Origin: Nitrospirota bacterium
GTDB lineage: Bacteria; Nitrospirota; UBA9217
Length of the DNA: 64,000 bases
Assembly (NCBI GenBank): GCA_963790205.1
Contig: CAWBNQ010000006.1
Location: forward strand, 63,152 to 127,151
Direction: 5' to 3'
The notes under the pieces were generated by a model that saw nothing but the letters and a program-made list of their open reading frames with translations, searched no databases and was not told where the DNA came from. Positions 51,876 through 61,220 of this stretch are shown here, in pieces (the stretch's first letter is position 1; every line of letters starts with the position of its first letter). The translations under genes were made by a program, and so were the position numbers.

Positions 51876-54800
51876 ATGAATATTGCGAACGACATATGCA
51901 GCCTCGAATACCTTATCGGAACGCTTTCTACGGCGTATAAGGGCGTGATTACCTCGCTCGCGGCCAAGGACTTCTGCATGACCGACGAGGGAGAAGCCAC
52001 TACGCTGAAAGGGACCCTCCTCTCCATACCCGAAGGTCGGTACGAGGCCTCTCTGATACGGAGCGGAATGGAACTGGCGCGCACAAAGCTTGAAAAGGGA
52101 CACTTCGAGCTTATGGCCGCCAGCGAGCGGGTAAAACAGGCAAAGGACCTGCAGATCGACATCATCCAGAGCGGAAGGCATGTCGGCACCTTTTTGCTGA
52201 AAAAGGAAAGCAGCGACGGGTTCTATATCTCCGCGGTGGAGCTTTCGGAAGAGCTCAAGGGGATGGATCTCAAGCGCCTTACGGTCCCGCTCCAGGACAA
52301 GGTCGGGCTGCTGCATAAGGCCGAGGAGATCATCACGAAAATACTTTCCACGAAAAAGGACTGGGCGGCCTTTTCCGAGCTGTTGAACGGCTTTGCTGCC
52401 GACCTTTTCTGGTCGGCGCGGGAGGCCTTTTACGGCTCGTTCCCGATCCTGGCCCGCTTTTCCTTGAAAGCCGCCGAAAGGACCGACATTTCCGTTACGG
52501 GCAAACCGGTTTCAAATCTTCTCGACTTGATAGCACGCCCCCTTGAGCATGAGACCGACGACCAGGTCCTTCGCCCCGCGGTCGCTCTCTGGCTGGCGGA
52601 GCTCACGGGTTCATCGGTTGATCTGTCCGGCCGGCTTCGCGCGGCGTCCCGTACGCTCGCCTCCATCCATGAAAAATTCCCCGATGCCGGACTCGCCCCC
52701 GTCATAACCGGGCTTCTGTCCTCGTTCAGGAAAAAGCTCGCTGCCATGCCCTTGCTGAGCGCGGCGACGCTGCTTCAATTGAAAGGACGCGTAACGGACG
52801 AGGAGTATGCAAGCCTCGCGCAATATGGCGACGCGAGACGAGAGGAGCTTGTGCGGGATCTTGCCGAAGCCGGGCGCGATCCGGGCAAAGGGGCGCCGGG
52901 CAGCGCCCTCGTCTTTCTGAGCAGCCTGGATGCCGATGTCCTCGATGACGGGAAAATGGTCACGGCCGTGTATGAGGCCGTTGCCCGGAATATTATTGCG
53001 GACTTTGCCGACGAGTTCACGGCGGCCTTGACCGGGATATTCCCATTGTTTCCCCGGCTGTCCGGCAGGGCGCTTGATGCCGTTCTCTCGAACGCCCCGC
53101 TGGTGATGGAAAAGCTGGTCTCCTTTGGCAGGGCTGATGCCTGCGCCAGGCTGCTCACCTCCATTGCCCAGGCAGGCCCGCCGATCACGGAGAAGATCGT
53201 CATGGACCCGGGGATGGCCGCGGCCATCCTTCGTTCCGAAGACGAGGAACTCGTCGCACAATACGTATCCGTCCTGGAGCGGATCATTATCCCGCCGGCG
53301 AAGGTAAAGGCGCTGTCAACGGAGACCTGGGCCGAGATCGTGGACCCGCTCCATCTTGAACGGCTTATAAAGTTCATGGATATTTTGCAGCTCGGCGGGG
53401 AGCGGCTCCGCAGCGTTCTCGTCCATGTGATCGCCAATCTTTCCGTAAGCGGAGTTTTTATTCCCGATGACCGGCTCTTCCAGCGGAACGTATCGTCCTA
53501 TCTGAACTCGGAGGCCATGCGCGGGGATTTCCTGCTGAACTTTCTTTTGCTGCAGAAGCTGCCGGTATACTTCAACGAAGTAGGGGCAGTGAACAGGGTC
53601 CGGGACTATTCCACGGAGCTCGATTCCTGGGGTGATGATCCGGTCCTGTATTTCGTTCGCAAGCAGGTGCACGTGAACGCGAGCAACTATAATGTCCGGC
53701 TCCTGGAAAAGGTCATGGCGTCCTGGGTGGACGAAGATCCCGGCATGGTCCGGGACGCCGTGCCCCGTGATGTCTTGCATGGCCTGAAACCGGGGCTTTT
53801 TAAACGATACGCGGCGTTCATAAGACCGTTTTTTGGATCTGTCGGCGTGCTCGACGCCGAGGGGCTTCATTTCGACAAGCTGCTCGCGCTTCCCGCCGAG
53901 ACATTCACGGCAACGCCTCGGGATGGAAAGCCCGATGAAATACCGGCCAAGGTCATGCTGCTCTGTAAACTCTACCGGGAGGTCGTCGGGAAATATTCTC
54001 TCGTAAGACCGGAAGTCGATCGCGGGGATGCTTACGGGGCGCTCAGGGAACAGCTGGACAAGGCGGGAAAGCTTGTCCACGCGGTGCTTGACCGGGAAAA
54101 GACCGTTGCCCGGGAAGCGCTCTACTTTAAACGGCATATCGCGTTCGGCATTCCCTCGGTCCTCGGGACCTATCACGAACCCAAGTTCGACGCCCTGGCC
54201 GGGCTCCTTCGAAACGATGCCGCGATCAGCGTGCTGTTTGAAGAAGCGCTGTCAAGGATCGGTGCGGGAGAGCGGAATTTTACAACGGCCCAGGCCATGT
54301 CGTGGCTTCGCACCCTTGGAAACGCGTATGAAGCGCTCAGGCTCCACGGCCTTGCAAACGCGCAAATGGAAGAGCTTGCCACGATCATGGATACGAACAA
54401 GCTTCACCTCTCCCAGGCCGTTGATCTGCTCAAGATGTGGCAGAAGGAACTTGCCTGGATCGTCGAGTTCTTTAACCGGACGTTCCACAAGCCGATCATC
54501 GACGTTCTCATCCAATTCCCGAAAGAAGACCTGCCCGAGTACCTTATCAATCTGGATATCGACGACCCCGATTTTGCGAACAAGGCCGCGGACATCGTCA
54601 TCAGGAACATGATAAGCAGCGTGCCCGGCCTTGTCGAAGCGGACAGGATGATCGAGCGCCTCATCGGCGCGTTCACAGCGCGCATGGAACTATCGGATGA
54701 GGATCTGAACGAACAGCAGCCCGGGGAAGACCGGCAATACTTCCTGCTTCATGAACTTTCGGATTCTGATGCGGCACGGCTTGGACCGATGCTCGGCAAC

Positions 54801-56252
54801 AAGGCCAGGAACCTGGTGAATCTTTTGAACCGGGGATTTCGCGTGCCGCCCGGCGTTGTGTTCTCAGCCGCAATGACCGACCACTATGAAACGTACGTCG
54901 GGAGCGCCGATTTCGAAGCTGCGCTCAAGCAGGCAATGAAACATCTTGAAGACAAGACCGGAACGCGCTTCGGCGGCGCAAGGAAACCGCTGTTCCTGTC
55001 GGTCCGAAGCGGCTCATACGTCTCCATGCCGGGCATTCTCTCGACCATCCTCTTTTGCGGAATGAACAGGGACACGCTCGCGGGGTTCATACAGGAGACC
55101 GGAGATCCGAGGCTCGGATGGGACTCCTACCGGCGGTTCATCGAACAGTACGCGACCGTGGTCCTCGGCCTCGGTGCCGGCATTCTCGAGAGCATAGCGG
55201 GCGATGTTCTGAAAAAATCCGGTCTGGCACGTCGAAAAGAATGTGAGGCCCGCCATCTGGAGGAGATCGTAAAACGGGAGCTCGCGCTCCTGTCCCGGAG
55301 AGGACTTTCGATACCGGAGGATGTCCATGAACAGCTCAAGCAGTCGATAGGCGCGATCTACGCCTCGTGGTTCAGCGAACGGGCGCGGCAATTCAGGAAG
55401 GCGACCCGGACCTCGGAGCATTGGGGCACGGCCGTGACGCTGATGCAGATGGTCCTGGGCAATGCGGCGGGATCCGGCGCTTCCATATTTTTCACGCGGA
55501 ATCCCTTCACCTCCGCGCGGGAACTTTACGGCGAAACGAAAGAGCAGGTCACGGGCGACGACCTGGTGTACGGGCGATACCAGGGCCGGCCTCTTTCGAG
55601 GAACCAGGCCGGAAACGGCGAAGAAAGCCTCGAAGAACGGGACCCCGATCTGTTCAGCCGACACCGGGAGCTTGCGGAAAGGATCGAGCGGGCAATGGGA
55701 GGGCTGCCCCAGGAAGTGGAGGCAGCCTATACGAGGGAGCCGGACGGAAGCAGGGTGATCTCCGTGCTCCAGACGCGCCGCATGGAATCCGGCGCCGGCT
55801 ATGTTTCAGCGTTCGACGAGATCTGCACCCTGGAGCCGCGGATCATCGGCAGGGGGGTCGGCGCCCACGGCGGGGCCGTGAGCGGCGTTGCCTCGTTTGC
55901 GCGGACCCCGGACGAGGCGCGGCGCCTGGCGCAAGAGAGCGGCATGCCCGTTGTTCTGCTGCGGACCATGGCGAGCACCGACGATGTCTCGCTCATGCCG
56001 GCGATCAAGGGCATCGTCACGTCGAGCGGCGGGGTCACCTCCCACGCGGCAGTGCTGGCGCAGAAGTTCGGCGTATCTGCAGTCGTGTCGTGCGCCGACC
56101 TGTCGATCGAGATCGACGATCAAGGCGCGAGCTTCGCAAGGATGGGGACGGTCATTATAAAGGAAGGCATGCCCATCAGCATCGACGGCGCAAGCGGCCT
56201 CGTCTTTTCCGGCGCCTGCCTGCACACGACCCGGACCGAACGCTATCAATGA
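51876..56252 (+). CDS. PPDK-like protein: long N-terminal region, ATP-grasp domain and phospho-His swivel domain
   Basis: LGNKA..VPPG, PLFLSVRSG..SMPG, GTAVTLMQMV and TSSGGVTSHAAVLA. No pyruvate-binding barrel. Confidence 0.85.
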   Translation: MNIANDICSLEYLIGTLSTAYKGVITSLAAKDFCMTDEGEATTLKGTLLSIPEGRYEASLIRSGMELARTKLEKGHFELMAASERVKQAKDLQIDIIQSGRHVGTFLLKKESSDGFYISAVELSEELKGMDLKRLTVPLQDKVGLLHKAEEIITKILSTKKDWAAFSELLNGFAADLFWSAREAFYGSFPILARFSLKAAERTDISVTGKPVSNLLDLIARPLEHETDDQVLRPAVALWLAELTGSSVDLSGRLRAASRTLASIHEKFPDAGLAPVITGLLSSFRKKLAAMPLLSAATLLQLKGRVTDEEYASLAQYGDARREELVRDLAEAGRDPGKGAPGSALVFLSSLDADVLDDGKMVTAVYEAVARNIIADFADEFTAALTGIFPLFPRLSGRALDAVLSNAPLVMEKLVSFGRADACARLLTSIAQAGPPITEKIVMDPGMAAAILRSEDEELVAQYVSVLERIIIPPAKVKALSTETWAEIVDPLHLERLIKFMDILQLGGERLRSVLVHVIANLSVSGVFIPDDRLFQRNVSSYLNSEAMRGDFLLNFLLLQKLPVYFNEVGAVNRVRDYSTELDSWGDDPVLYFVRKQVHVNASNYNVRLLEKVMASWVDEDPGMVRDAVPRDVLHGLKPGLFKRYAAFIRPFFGSVGVLDAEGLHFDKLLALPAETFTATPRDGKPDEIPAKVMLLCKLYREVVGKYSLVRPEVDRGDAYGALREQLDKAGKLVHAVLDREKTVAREALYFKRHIAFGIPSVLGTYHEPKFDALAGLLRNDAAISVLFEEALSRIGAGERNFTTAQAMSWLRTLGNAYEALRLHGLANAQMEELATIMDTNKLHLSQAVDLLKMWQKELAWIVEFFNRTFHKPIIDVLIQFPKEDLPEYLINLDIDDPDFANKAADIVIRNMISSVPGLVEADRMIERLIGAFTARMELSDEDLNEQQPGEDRQYFLLHELSDSDAARLGPMLGNKARNLVNLLNRGFRVPPGVVFSAAMTDHYETYVGSADFEAALKQAMKHLEDKTGTRFGGARKPLFLSVRSGSYVSMPGILSTILFCGMNRDTLAGFIQETGDPRLGWDSYRRFIEQYATVVLGLGAGILESIAGDVLKKSGLARRKECEARHLEEIVKRELALLSRRGLSIPEDVHEQLKQSIGAIYASWFSERARQFRKATRTSEHWGTAVTLMQMVLGNAAGSGASIFFTRNPFTSARELYGETKEQVTGDDLVYGRYQGRPLSRNQAGNGEESLEERDPDLFSRHRELAERIERAMGGLPQEVEAAYTREPDGSRVISVLQTRRMESGAGYVSAFDEICTLEPRIIGRGVGAHGGAVSGVASFARTPDEARRLAQESGMPVVLLRTMASTDDVSLMPAIKGIVTSSGGVTSHAAVLAQKFGVSAVVSCADLSIEIDDQGASFARMGTVIIKEGMPISIDGASGLVFSGACLHTTRTERYQ

Positions 56253-57174: not shown

Positions 57175-57489
57175 ACAAACACACTTAGCTCGTTCGCGGT
57201 ACTGTCAAAACTTTTATGAAAAAGAGAGGCAGGCATGAAACCACAGTGGGCACAGAGGAAAGGCATGGAGAAATCTGAATACGCAGAGCTTGATTTTTCA
57301 AGAATATACTCTGTGCACTCGCGGTTGAAGGACCAAGAAAAGAGTGAGAAACGCCGGTAAAAACAGAGGACACCGAGGGGGAGGAAAGCCAGGGATGAAT
57401 TTATTCCTCTTAATTCAGGATGTTCTCTGGGTTCTCTGTGGTTAGATTTAGATTTTGACAATACGTCGTTCGCAGAAAGGAGTCTTCCA

Positions 57490-57645
57490 ATGAAACCACC
57501 GAGGAATCTCGGCATGCTCTTGTTGGGTATCTGGCTCATCTTAATGGGGCTGATACCGCTGCTGAGTCTCAGTTTTTCGGGACTCCGTACGCTCATGGCC
57601 ATCCTCGCAATCGCTGCGGGCGCTTTGATCGCACTGGGGCGATAG
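57490..57645 (+). CDS. Small 51-aa two-TM membrane protein (not in the ORF track)
   Basis: AAGGAG RBS; MKPPRNLGMLLLGIWLILMGLIPLL..AILAIAAGALIALGR. Confidence 0.7.
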   Translation: MKPPRNLGMLLLGIWLILMGLIPLLSLSFSGLRTLMAILAIAAGALIALGR

Positions 57646-58390
57646 GCCGGAAGGATATGGGGACGGGTCTTGGAATAGAAGAAACTGTCTTTATCCTCAA
57701 AGTGAATTTGAAGAAAGAATAACTTTCATACCGAAAACAAAATTTCAACTGACATTCAATCCCTTCAGTGAGCATCCGATTGTAATGAAGCTGCGTGACT
57801 TGATCGGAATACAAAAACAATGAGACTCTGGATAACAGCTGAAAGCCGATAGATCAAACAGAAAATCCTACAACCAGCGCATCCACAGCGTCGCGCCCGA
57901 AGGCTGCTCGTGACCTCTTGTTGACGCGCATTACAACTGGTATTCCGCAACCTTTTTGTCACGCGCTGGTACATGATAGTAGATACTATTATCACAGCAT
58001 GCCGGGATATACCCGGCTTTTATAATTTCCCCCTTCTTTGTTCCTGCGACTGCTTCTCCCCGAGGAGCTTCACGATTTTTCATCATGGACTGATCGGATC
58101 TAATTCTGATTATGAGACGAAAGGGGCGGGAACAGGCAAGTTGAATTTTCCCACCCATCAATTTTAAAATCACCTGCTATAAAGAAACATCTCCTGCGGA
58201 CAAGCTCAGCATCGTGATCCGTCAATAAAATTCCATGAAAAATTTTTGATGCTAAACGGCACTCCGGGGTGTATATTAACGAGTTATTTAACGAGTCGAT
58301 CAAGCCTGCGGCGCCGTCATTTGCGAAGGATATGTCAAAGCTGAGTTGATTCGTTTAACACTAAACGGAAGGTGGCAGGGGGGGAAGAGC

Positions 58391-59377
58391 GTGAAGATCG
58401 ACTGCTATATATCACATGGGTGCGGTTCCGAGGAAGCGTTGAAAGAGAACATCGCCCGTGCGCTGGAAGCCGAAACGATCCATGCCGAAGTCGGCATTCA
58501 CCGGATCAATGATGAAAAAGCGGCGGAATTGAAGCTCAGCGGATCGCCCTCGGTCTTTATCGATGGAAAGGAATTGCAGCCGCAGGGCATTGCCGGGTTT
58601 TCCTGAAGGATGTTCGAGGACGAGTCGGGCAGGCTCGCCAATGTCCCGTCAGTGGACACGCTGCGCAAGGCGCTGAAGGTGCGGAGCCGCGGGACGGGGG
58701 ATGCGCCCAAGGAGGGGAAGACCTGTAAGAAAAGTCTCATGGACCGGATCGGAGAAACGGTACGGGGAAGACTGGCGGGAGCGCGCCTGAGCCGAACGGA
58801 AGACGAGACGCGCAAATATATCCTGAAGGAGTTCGCTAGGACCGGCAAGCCCCCGTCCGGGAAAGCGATCGCCGGGGCGATGAAGCTGCCGTCACCCGAA
58901 GCGGCGAACCGAATCACCGAAAAACTGCATGCCGCGGACATCCTGACGAAGGAAGGCGGCGACATTATTTCAGCGTACCCCTTTTCCGCAAAAGCGACCC
59001 GCCATAAAGTTATTTTTAAGGACGGGCACGAGGTATACGCGCTCTGCGCCACGGATGCCCTGGGCATCCATTTCATGCTCCACGAGGACATTGCCGTCCG
59101 GTCCCGTTGCCCGGAGTGCGAAAACGAAATGAAGATCGGAGTGCGGGACGGCACGATCGCCTCCTGTGTACCCGAAGGCGTGGTTGAATTCGTCAGCAGC
59201 CGGGAGCACTGCGGATGCACCGCAAAGACCTTTTGCCCGTTCATGAACTTCTTTTGTTCCCAAGAACATCTGGAGAAATGGCGGGAGAAGAACCCCGCCT
59301 CCGGAAAGGGAGAAATGTATCAGCTTTCTCAGGTGCTGGAGCATGGGAGAAAAATATTCGGGGATTTCTTGAAATAG
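58391..59377 (+). CDS. Thioredoxin-like domain + MerB (organomercurial lyase-like) fusion, probable selenoprotein (TGA 58604-58606)
   Basis: GSPSVFIDG..GFS-TGA-RMF is in frame with the MerB-like AYPFS..H, YALCATDALG and CPFMNFF motifs. SECIS-like hairpin at 58621-58637. Confidence 0.82.
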
Positions 59378-59667
59378 ACAGACTGCGATACGTGGAGGGC
59401 AAGGATGAACAGAATAACAAAAAACGATTATTTTCTTTTTGTTCCTGCGCCTATTTCTCACGGATGAGTTTCACGGTCCTTCACGGGATGGACTGATCGG
59501 GCCGAACCCGGATTGATGAGGGAGGGCTGGCCAGGGCAGTTATGATGAGGCCATCCAGGCATCGTCAGCCGAAAGGGACGGGCACTGACAAACCGACGGT
59601 GTATCAATGATCGTTGTAAATTTACGATCAAAATGCCACTATTGCCGCAATCGGACAGTGAACACGA

Positions 59668-59931
59668 ATGAAAAAAGCAGATAGCTTCATCCAGTTTCCC
59701 TGCTCTTTCCCGCTCAAAGCCATGGGTCTCAATACCGAGGCGTTTGCTACGGCGGTAACAGCCATTTTCGAGAAACACGCGGCCCCCGAACGGATATCTT
59801 ACTCCCGCCGCCTGAGCAGCGGCGGCAAGTACTTGTCCATCACAGCGACTTTCATGGCCCGGAGCAAGGACCAGCTGGACGCACTGTATCGGGAATTGAA
59901 CGATCATGATCTGGTCCTGATGACTCTTTAG
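59668..59931 (+). CDS. DUF493/YbeD family protein
   Basis: FPCSFPLKAMG..SSGGKYLSIT..QLDALYREL. Confidence 0.88.
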   Translation: MKKADSFIQFPCSFPLKAMGLNTEAFATAVTAIFEKHAAPERISYSRRLSSGGKYLSITATFMARSKDQLDALYRELNDHDLVLMTL

Positions 59932-60056
59932 GGTATTATGCCGGTATCAGCGACGAAGGATCGCCGATCATAAAATCGGGCCTTGCAGGAAACCAGGAAA
60001 ATGTACGCAAAGACGCTCAGTCCGCAAAGTAAAACCGGACGGAGAAAGGCAGGGAC

Positions 60057-60410: not shown

Positions 60411-61220
60411 CTAATTCCCCGGATATCCCGGCGGAACAGGCGCGTATTCATCCTCATCCCACAACCTGTTCCCCGTGTCCTGGCCGCAGCGCAGAAGACC
60501 CTTCCTGCAGAGAACGTCCCGCCATTCGTACTTGACGAGGATCTTCCGGACCGGGACGCGCTCCGGTTCGAATTGAACGTTTACCACGGGGGAGTACTGC
60601 GCATCGCCGAAGCCCGTGCCCGCGCTCTCGTCCGCGAGCATTTTACCCTTGCTCCGTGCGGCGCTTCCCGCTGACGGCGCGGCGGGCGCAACCTCGCTTT
60701 TGTTCCCCTCGTACAAGGACTTCGGCCGCTCTTGCTCCCGGTAGATCGCCACGGCAATGACGCCCATGGCCGACGAGTCCTCGAACGTCCTGACGCTGTA
60801 AGAATCGGCGGGTTCCGTGAAATAGAACTTGTGCACCTGGTCCTGGCCGGTCCTCCACCCGTCATACCGGGCGCTGTCATACCCGTTCACGATGTACATG
60901 ATCTCGCTGTTCTTGAGCTCGGATTTTTTGCCGGAAATGATGTTCCTTCCGTCCACGGCAATGACCGCGCCGATTCTTTCGGGCGTGTTGTTCCGGATCA
61001 CGATCCCGTAGTTCTCGCCCTTTCTCGCCTCGAGATAGCTCTTGAAGACCTGGGTCCCCTTCGTTCGGGAGCTTTGAAGGGGGATGGTCCGGAAAACGAT
61101 CCCGCTGTCCGAGACGATCTCGATGGCGACCTCTCCGGGCAGCGGCGCCCTGCTCCGGGCGAATGCCGGCGCCGTTGCTGCCATGGCGATGGTGACGATA
61201 CCGATGAGTGTGTAACGCAT
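60411..61220 (-). CDS. Conserved hypothetical secreted protein
   Basis: Signal peptide; YLEA..GE.Y, VDGRNIISG and GTGFG motifs. Confidence 0.7.
   Translation of the reverse strand: MRYTLIGIVTIAMAATAPAFARSRAPLPGEVAIEIVSDSGIVFRTIPLQSSRTKGTQVFKSYLEARKGENYGIVIRNNTPERIGAVIAVDGRNIISGKKSELKNSEIMYIVNGYDSARYDGWRTGQDQVHKFYFTEPADSYSVRTFEDSSAMGVIAVAIYREQERPKSLYEGNKSEVAPAAPSAGSAARSKGKMLADESAGTGFGDAQYSPVVNVQFEPERVPVRKILVKYEWRDVLCRKGLLRCGQDTGNRLWDEDEYAPVPPGYPGN

What the first reader, a model, noticed from the sequence alone, without database searches (positions are those of the whole stretch)
58391..59377. Hidden selenoprotein: thioredoxin-like domain fused through UGA to a MerB-like lyase
Seen: ORFs 58346-58606 and 58610-59377 are in the same frame, separated only by TGA-AGG. 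Read through, they give about 328 aa: ..GSPSVFIDG..GFS-U-RMF.., then an HTH-like segment and a MerB fold (YALCATDALG, CPFMNFF). A hairpin CGAGTC-GGGCA-GGCTCG has its loop 20 nt after the TGA. Established: MerB uses Cys-x2-Asp plus a distal Cys, and related small thioredoxin-like proteins have Cys in an S-C-R motif at this position. Inference: a single-chain Sec-redox/organometal lyase. No merA, merR or merT is nearby, so the substrate may not be mercury.
Basis: partly seen in the sequence, partly recalled or inferred. Interest (0 to 1): 0.85.

Follow-up and report, generated by a model that had tools for sequence, protein, structure and literature searches.

The report
Selenocysteine-armed mercury lyase, orphaned from merA
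What gene finders split into two small genes is very likely one selenium-containing protein, in which a thioredoxin-like domain is joined to a relative of the enzyme that cuts mercury-carbon bonds; it descends from a mercury-resistance operon whose reductase gene has decayed here, and the selenium domain is predicted to take the mercury off the enzyme.

Summary
Observation confirmed. Window 58391-59377 reads through one UGA (codon 72) into 328 aa: a DF-family thioredoxin-fold domain plus a MerB with all four canonical signature residues. UGA stands at that column in 129 of 136 homologous loci and Cys in 6; a SECIS-type hairpin covaries; selA/B/C/D are present; all-Cys DF-MerB fusions exist on actinobacterial plasmids. 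A 67-nt relic of merA's 3' end lies 32 nt upstream, and 13 of 33 Sec fusions have merA, a merA relic, merR or a MerR-type operator upstream. DF domains also fuse to MerT-MerP and sit alone in mer operons, whose MerA lacks NmerA (4 of 4). Best reading: an organomercurial lyase with a tethered Cys11/Sec72 mercury relay; the relay is inferred. Sec72 is not the published DF Sec site (column 11). This genome has hgcAB and no MerA. No activity, expression or Se incorporation was shown. The scan noted the same fusion on two other genomes. New variant of a known kind; interest 0.6.

The parts
58292..58358 (+). Relic of the 3' end of merA; the terminal Cys-Cys codons are lost, one to a stop
   Evidence: 79% identity over 67 nt to merA of L048, E 1e-8, best hit in the whole genome; 14 of 20 residues match the MerA tail; alignment
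58378..58384 (+). Shine-Dalgarno-like G run before the GTG start
   Evidence: sequence
58391..59377 (+). DF-MerB fusion gene, 328 aa with one in-frame UGA
   Evidence: 33 non-redundant Sec fusions among fetched loci
58391..58678 (+). DF-family thioredoxin-fold domain (residues 1-96)
   Evidence: NF049942 E 5e-12, 45.6 bits, cut-off 70; profile hit to thioredoxin 1fo5 E 1e-7; model pLDDT 87, Foldseek neighbours are thioredoxins at E 1.5e-3 or weaker
58421..58423 (+). Cys11, aligned with the first Cys of thioredoxin CxxC; no second Cys
   Evidence: alignment; Cys in 131 of 134 aligned segments that cover the column
58604..58606 (+). UGA read as Sec72 (S-U-R)
   Evidence: TGA 129, TGC 6, TTA 1 of 136 loci; Cys in 75 of 79 database proteins that span the column
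58621..58637 (+). SECIS-type hairpin (predicted lower stem extends 58608-58646)
   Evidence: meets the four consensus criteria quoted in PMC13188914, checked by hand
58679..58735 (+). Variable linker, residues 97-115
   Evidence: least conserved part, 6-residue deletion in 2 of 10; pLDDT under 50 at 101-113
58736..59374 (+). MerB lyase domain with its N-terminal helical part
   Evidence: PF03243 108.9 bits, cut-off 27; Foldseek top 11 hits all MerB, best 5c17 E 3.6e-13
59045..59056 (+). Cys219 and Asp222 (MerB Cys96, Asp99)
   Evidence: invariant in 10 of 10 fusions
59108..59110 (+). Cys240 (MerB Cys117)
   Evidence: Asp in the 4 actinobacterial Cys fusions aligned
59234..59236 (+). Cys282 (MerB Cys159); followed by Pro, not Sec as in SaoL

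Best explanation
The gene very likely makes one 328-residue selenoprotein whose MerB half likely cleaves mercury-carbon bonds and whose tethered thioredoxin-fold domain is predicted to use Cys11 and Sec72 as a pair of soft ligands that lift Hg(II) off the lyase site and pass it on. Step 1, shown by sequence comparison: UGA72 is a Sec codon with a SECIS hairpin, in a genome with selA, selB, selD and two tRNA-Sec. Step 2, inferred from homology and context: Cys219, Asp222 and Cys282 protonolyse R-Hg as in MerB. Step 3, inferred: MerB needs two outside thiols per turnover (PMC4525700), and the DF domain supplies a thiol and a selenol in cis. It would hand Hg(II) to MerA, which in these operons lacks its own N-terminal Hg shuttle. 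Step 4, shown: in this genome merA has been deleted down to a 67-nt relic while the fusion stayed intact; the acceptor here would be cell thiols or sulfide (inferred).
For: Read-through: (129 TGA of 136); stem codon choice is restricted (Glu78 GAG 122 of 122 against 317 of 884 elsewhere in the same genes; Ser79 0 AGY of 120 against 134 of 859; Arg81 0 CGY of 105 against 106 of 363); covariation; machinery, selA in 11 of 11 relatives tested; Cys fusions. Mercury: signatures; of 33 Sec fusions, 8 have merA within 720 nt upstream, 2 a merA relic, 1 merR adjacent, 2 a MerR-type operator (L067; L070 by eye); MerA of L040 is over the TIGR02053 cut-off. Relay role: DF homologs fused to MerT plus HMA (P0229), to a MerC-like stretch (P0265, E 2.6e-4, under cut-off) and to MerB (P0228); a stand-alone Sec DF gene between merR and merT-merP-merB (L082); merA upstream of 7 of 100 non-fusion DF loci; no HMA domain in 4 of 4 neighbouring MerA.
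Against: No expression, Se incorporation, activity or binding data. The model gave no distance between Cys11, Sec72 and the MerB site, and the full-chain model is middling (pLDDT 72.9, pTM 0.61). The MerB half is far under NCBIfam's MerB cut-offs (58.1 of 200; 67.2 of 193). 14 of 33 fusions show no mer sign upstream (5 of them with 3.8 kb or more in view) and 3 follow an ArsM-like methyltransferase. DF genes also occur with no mercury link: 20 of 100 beside a CMD gene, including this genome's paralog, and plasmid Cys forms beside Cu/Cd-type ATPases and ArsR. Close MerB relatives without a DF domain exist (L082, L083), so the domain is dispensable in cis. The loci were collected with this protein as query and are related, so the counts overstate independence.
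Confidence: 0.55

Rival explanations
1. Single Sec chain and mercury lyase, but the DF domain is a thiol/selenol-disulfide oxidoreductase that keeps the Cys-rich MerB domain reduced, or repairs it, rather than carrying metal.
For: Thioredoxin fold with Cys11 at the attacking position and Pro53 conserved; the fusion has many invariant extra Cys (5, 240, 243, 274, 276, 289); stand-alone Sec DF genes sit beside redox genes such as CMD.
Against: No CxxC; fusions to MerT-HMA and placement in mer and other metal-resistance operons favour metal handling; no reductase partner is conserved nearby.
Confidence: 0.2
2. The DF domain works upstream: its selenol captures R-Hg from thiols or from the MerT transporter and delivers substrate to the MerB site, raising affinity at trace methylmercury.
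For: DF-MerT-HMA fusion; genome encodes HgcA (402.8 bits, cut-off 275) with hgcB adjacent, so substrate could be made inside the cell; high Se affinity for mercury (established knowledge, recalled).
Against: This genome has no MerT or MerR hit; DF follows merA without merB in several loci, where no organomercurial step is encoded in view.
Confidence: 0.1
3. One reading: after loss of merA the protein acts on another organometal(loid), such as a methylarsenical.
For: No MerA in this genome; none found in 8 of 10 fusion genomes; ArsM-like gene directly upstream in 3 of 33; best NCBIfam score is to SaoL (86.1 bits, cut-off 140), for which a wider substrate range was suggested (10.1101/2022.07.06.499078).
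Against: MerB domains of merA-linked and merA-less copies are 76-82% identical to the window's and are not separated in the tree; all four MerB signatures are kept; over half of MerB genomes lack MerA anyway (PMC8261052, section 11).
Confidence: 0.12
4. UGA is a true stop and two proteins are made, a 71-aa fragment and a 255-aa MerB restarted at the ATG three bases later.
For: ATG at codon 74 in 31 of 32 fusions against 86 of all 129 Sec loci; 81 of the 120 listed database hits start there by pattern and none covers more than 78% of the chain.
Against: The stop would cut the domain, whose C-terminal part is conserved in stand-alone and Cys homologs; the codon is never TAA or TAG in 136 loci; SECIS covariation; one fusion has CTG there. 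Restart as a by-product under low selenium is not excluded.
Confidence: 0.03

Closest known systems
Actinobacterial Cys-form DF-MerB fusions (WP_065848419.1 Streptomyces, WP_149357616.1 Rhodococcus, WP_163738670.1 Mycobacterium, WP_006438313.1 Nocardia)
   Same: Same domain order and length (324-335 aa), Cys11, S-C-R, Cys-x2-Asp and distal Cys invariant; MerR-family regulator adjacent
   Different: Cys not Sec; 30-33% identity; Asp at the Cys117 position; stem pairing weak (0-4 of 5). I found no paper describing their N-terminal domain. One or two origins unresolved.
DF family (seleno)protein, NCBIfam NF049942; 'hypothetical protein DF' of deep-Sep (PMC12013277)
   Same: Same domain over its whole length (E 5e-12)
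   Different: Under the cut-off (45.6 of 70). The published protein has Sec at column 11 and its listed sequence ends just before column 72 (supplement file 4, compared by eye); here Cys11 and Sec72. The paper knew one organism, no UGA homologs, no fusion and no function.
Organomercurial lyase MerB (PF03243; PDB 3F0P, 5C17)
   Same: Fold, Cys96/Asp99/Cys117/Cys159 equivalents, mer-operon context
   Different: About 22% identity; extra Sec domain; extra conserved Cys clusters; no MerA in this genome
SaoL, MerB-like selenoprotein (NF040728; 10.1101/2022.07.06.499078)
   Same: MerB homolog that is a selenoprotein in anaerobes and is truncated in databases
   Different: SaoL carries Sec in the lyase site (CU motif) within a nine-gene SAO locus; here the lyase site is all Cys and Sec is in a separate domain; 86.1 bits, cut-off 140
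NmerA domain of MerA (functional analogue)
   Same: Proposed role: small two-ligand domain that removes Hg from proteins and delivers it to the reductase (title of Ledwidge 2005 seen in a reference list; mechanism otherwise recalled)
   Different: HMA fold with CxxC, attached to MerA; here a thioredoxin fold attached to MerB. The analogy is untested.

Membership tests
Bacterial selenoprotein | In-frame UGA conserved in homologs and aligned with Cys | tested here: met
   129 TGA, 6 TGC, 1 TTA of 136; Cys in 75 of 79 spanning proteins
Bacterial selenoprotein | SECIS: loop 3-9 nt with G in first two positions, stem 4-16 bp, 16-37 nt from UGA, MFE at most -7.5 | tested here: met
   5-nt loop GGGCA, 6-bp upper stem, 20 nt, -11.9 kcal/mol; bSECISearch itself not available
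Bacterial selenoprotein | selA, selB, selC, selD in the genome | tested here: met
   all over curated cut-offs
Bacterial selenoprotein | Selenium found in the protein | not testable with these tools
   needs 75Se or mass spectrometry
DF family NF049942 | HMM score over 70 bits | tested here: not met
   45.6 bits, profile 2-96 of 96; Cys fusions also score under, 45-53 bits
DF family NF049942 | Conserved column-11 and column-72 Cys/Sec and G-S-P motif | tested here: met
MerB superfamily PF03243 | Score over gathering threshold and MerB fold | tested here: met
   108.9 over 27; Foldseek E 3.6e-13
Canonical MerB (Christakis 2021 signatures) | Cys96, Asp99, Cys117, Cys159 | tested here: met
   C219, D222, C240, C282 (signatures)
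MerB equivalogs NF033555 / NF009710 | Score over curated cut-off | tested here: not met
   58.1 of 200; 67.2 of 193
MerB (function) | Lies in a mer operon with merA | tested here: inconclusive
   Only a relic here; intact merA upstream in 8 of 33
MerB (function) | Protonolysis of organomercurials | not testable with these tools
   assay needed
SaoL NF040728 | CU motif at the distal lyase Cys and score over 140 | tested here: not met
   C282-P283; 86.1 bits
SaoL NF040728 | Nine-gene SAO neighbourhood | tested here: inconclusive
   None of 4 neighbouring ORFs scanned matched a Sao model; the rest of the genome was not searched for Sao genes
Classical thioredoxin/glutaredoxin | CxxC or CxxS dithiol motif with both Cys | tested here: not met
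   first Cys only; PF13192 17.6 bits, cut-off 24.8

The most novel reading that the evidence does not exclude
In mercury-methylating Nitrospirota that have lost merA, the Sec domain is the end of the road for mercury: it strips Hg(II) from its own MerB as a mercury-selenolate sink, giving a MerA-free, selenium-based demethylation route inside cells that also carry hgcAB. DF domains in general are an overlooked mer component that replaces NmerA. HgcA is present in 10 of 10 fusion genomes (but also in 52 of 64 of the family), and no MerA was found in 8 of the 10.
Probability: 0.15. Interest if true: 0.85.

Novelty: new variant of a known kind. Interest (0 to 1): 0.6.

Why it matters
It gives a function-bearing context (mercury and other metal-resistance operons) to a selenoprotein family published as 'hypothetical', and adds a second Sec site that databases still truncate (GenBank HUK99735.1 is the 255-aa piece). 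It also makes an open question testable: how MerB turns over in the many genomes without MerA (906 of 1795 in PMC8261052, which also says none of its MerB-only genomes had hgcAB; this genome has MerB and hgcAB and no MerA). Selenium-mercury antagonism would here be built into a detoxifying enzyme, in a lineage that matters for methylmercury budgets in sediments.

Tried and rejected
TTG 58346 as start: inside the merA relic, homologs start at 58391. Longer-protein search with the DF alignment found nothing, a weak negative overturned by the plasmid search and the representative search. One search used a structure mis-set by one column (44.6% paired); corrected. The operator pattern was wrong and matched nothing; corrected (none in this genome; L070 escapes the strict pattern by one base). 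A perfect dyad after TTGATT at about 58346-58377 was rejected as a MerR operator: it overlaps the merA relic and has no -10 box. The hit of L042's upstream gene to the MerA cluster is another flavoprotein, not confirmed. hgcA co-occurrence is family background, not enrichment. The tree is only the quick version, with long branches meeting; it cannot tell one from two origins of the fusion. Rfam: no match at E up to 1 in 57200-60000. Promoter and terminator scans at chance level. RNA runs: no RNA holder listed. The language-model atlas gave no result for this protein and the wide structural search was not run, so distant look-alikes from those two remain unchecked. No complex prediction was run. 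Literature searches for the fusion found no description; subscription journals, bioRxiv supplements, BSepDB's records and RefSeq itself were not searched, so an annotation there is possible.

Full report
Observation. The two ORFs are in frame and separated by TGA AGG ATG; reading TGA as Sec opens one frame to 59377. Homologs begin at the GTG at 58391, giving 328 aa. Residues 4-94 match NCBIfam's DF family (seleno)protein model across the UGA (E 5e-12, 45.6 bits, cut-off 70; the pre-UGA piece alone scores 35.1), and residues 198-324 match Pfam MerB (108.9 bits).

Read-through. Among fetched loci, 136 non-redundant matches cover column 72: 129 TGA, 6 TGC (all from actinobacterial plasmid records), 1 TTA; two further short matches that do not reach the column were dropped. 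In the 150 best database representatives (153 aligned segments), column 72 is Cys in 75, another residue in 4 and missing in 74, of which 56 end at or near the column, as truncation at UGA predicts. The hairpin meets the four consensus SECIS criteria quoted in PMC13188914 (passages). Its energy alone is modest, but in 26 chosen sequences 95.5% of cells pair and 4 of 6 pairs change on both sides (one search was mis-indexed). All five core pairs form in 111 of 129 Sec loci and in none of 6 Cys loci, and synonymous codons in the stem are restricted: Glu78 GAG 122 of 122, Ser79 never AGY (120), Arg81 never CGY (105), Leu82 CTC 115 of 127. Relatedness inflates these counts. The genome has selA and selB side by side, selD with its own TGA, and two tRNA-Sec; selA is present in 11 of 11 relatives tested. 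All-Cys proteins with the same two domains, 324-335 aa, lie beside MerR-family genes on Streptomyces, Rhodococcus, Mycobacterium and Nocardia plasmids and align end to end at 30-33% identity. Against this: codon 74 is ATG in 31 of 32 fusions, so restart under low selenium is possible.

Distribution. Of 401 phylum genomes, 87 match; 10 carry the full fusion (11 copies, each with one TGA) and most of the rest carry stand-alone DF genes with the same UGA. This genome has one MerB and one stand-alone Sec DF paralog. Databases hold the fusion in pieces: none of the 120 listed hits covers more than 78% of it.

Lyase half. C219, D222, C240 and C282 align with MerB C96, D99, C117 and C159, the four signatures used in PMC8261052 (passages). 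The model's top 11 Foldseek hits are MerB structures. Scores are far under the NCBIfam MerB and SaoL cut-offs, so it is a divergent member. It is not SaoL, whose Sec lies in the lyase site (10.1101/2022.07.06.499078, parts 1-3 of 8 read).

Origin in a mer operon. Window 58292-58358 is 79% identical over 67 nt to the 3' end of a relative's merA (E 1e-8, best hit in the genome), with the terminal Cys-Cys codons lost. Of 33 non-redundant Sec fusions, 8 have merA within 720 nt upstream, 2 a merA relic, 1 merR adjacent, 2 a MerR-type operator, 3 only the SHOCT gene (or its tail) that separates merA from the fusion in 7 of those 8 operons, 3 an ArsM-like gene, and 14 nothing (6 with under 300 nt in view, 5 with 3.8 kb or more). 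This genome has no MerA: best hits are 30-32% identical, under the cut-off, without terminal Cys-Cys, and no MerR or MerT hit; it is 98% complete. It has hgcA with hgcB adjacent. HgcA is in 10 of 10 fusion genomes but also 52 of 64 family genomes. MerA was found in 2 of the 10 (the family search scored at most 21 candidates per genome). Nitrospirae genomes with both hgcAB and merB were reported before (PMC9948709, passages).

What the Sec domain does. It has a thioredoxin fold (no structural match better than E 1.5e-3) with Cys11 at the first CxxC position, no second Cys, and Cys or Sec at column 72 in an insertion. The published DF protein has Sec at column 11 and its listed sequence stops just before column 72 (PMC12013277, passages and supplement hits; compared by eye), so either position can be Sec, which suggests a working pair. 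The review of 119 families lists DF with one Sec and no MerB fusion (PMC13188914, section 7 parts 1-2 of 3). DF homologs are fused to MerT plus HMA, to a MerC-like stretch, to MerB and to a redoxin (17 longer or close representatives scanned). A Sec DF gene sits between merR and merT-merP-merB in L082. Among 100 non-fusion DF loci, 7 follow merA, 7-8 lie among genes I read by eye as arsenic-operon types (labels recalled), and 20 follow a CMD gene. Five of 7 further plasmid Cys forms lie beside metal regulators or pumps. MerB needs two thiols per turnover (PMC4525700, part 1 of 5) and is thought to pass Hg directly to MerA (PMC8261052 section 11 part 1). The four MerA proteins tested from these operons have no HMA domain. 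I therefore infer that the DF domain is a tethered mercury relay standing in for NmerA. This step is not shown; a redox role or substrate capture remain open.

History. In a quick tree of 44 MerB domains, DF-less MerB from L082, L083 and L085 nest among Sec fusions, which suggests later splitting; the position of the actinobacterial fusions rests on long branches and is unresolved.

Novelty. Architecture known in databases as Cys proteins; both domains belong to described families; the Sec72 form, its mer-operon origin and the mer link of DF were not found in eight literature searches nor in the BSepDB paper's text (term search). PMC9312934 was seen only as a listing. Two earlier notes of this scan describe the same fusion on other genomes; my reading was fixed before I saw them. 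Verdict: new variant of a known kind. Odds: read-through about 0.95, organomercury substrate about 0.8, relay role about 0.55 overall. Interest 0.6.

Noticed in passing
window 58037-58116 and 59438-59520: Imperfect direct repeat (75% over 83 columns, E 1e-10) flanking the gene and its merA relic; not found elsewhere in the genome or in other loci; no Rfam match. May mark how the gene was inserted.
   Followed up: partly
G000:C1:147147-148115 (L177): hgcA over cut-off with hgcB directly downstream; predicted mercury methylator; hgcA in 52 of 64 family genomes.
   Followed up: partly
G000:C3:668116-668406 (L008): Stand-alone Sec DF paralog in a conserved CMD-ferredoxin-DF-hydrolase neighbourhood seen in up to 20 loci (ferredoxin and hydrolase labels by eye).
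   Followed up: partly
G000:C1:656899-656993 and C8:121701-121799: Two tRNA-Sec genes in one genome; contamination estimate is 3.97%.
   Followed up: no
G000:C3:810978-812321 (L174): Flavin disulfide reductase with TGA in the redox motif (C-L-N-V-G-U-I-P), a probable further selenoprotein.
   Followed up: no
L038 (G024:C14:4656-5249): MerB-like gene with two in-frame TGA, apparently at both lyase Cys positions (Y-A-A-U-A-V-D and A-F-U-K-K); similar 2-TGA hits in several relatives. A possible double-Sec lyase.
   Followed up: no
L087-L089, just downstream of the DF gene: DsbA-like frame with D-Y-I-U-P-Y-C, a probable selenoprotein, after a close DF gene that lacks MerB.
   Followed up: no
L071:1689-2045 and homologs: Uncharacterised 119-aa protein directly downstream of 9 of 29 loci examined; no Pfam or NCBIfam match; not seen beside the window's gene.
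   Followed up: partly
L049:5917-6780: Methanocellaceae MerB, 52% identical to the window's lyase domain, with a different Cys-rich N-terminal extension, beside an ArsR-like gene and a ferredoxin (neighbour labels by eye).
   Followed up: no
L147 (G355:C34): merA followed by a DF-MerB gene truncated after about 130 residues.
   Followed up: no
window 51876-56252: 1458-aa protein with a C-terminal pyruvate phosphate dikinase-like region and about 960 N-terminal residues without a family match.
   Followed up: no
window 60411-61217 (-): 268-aa secreted-looking protein without Pfam match; homologs lie near the fusion in L066 and L074.
   Followed up: no
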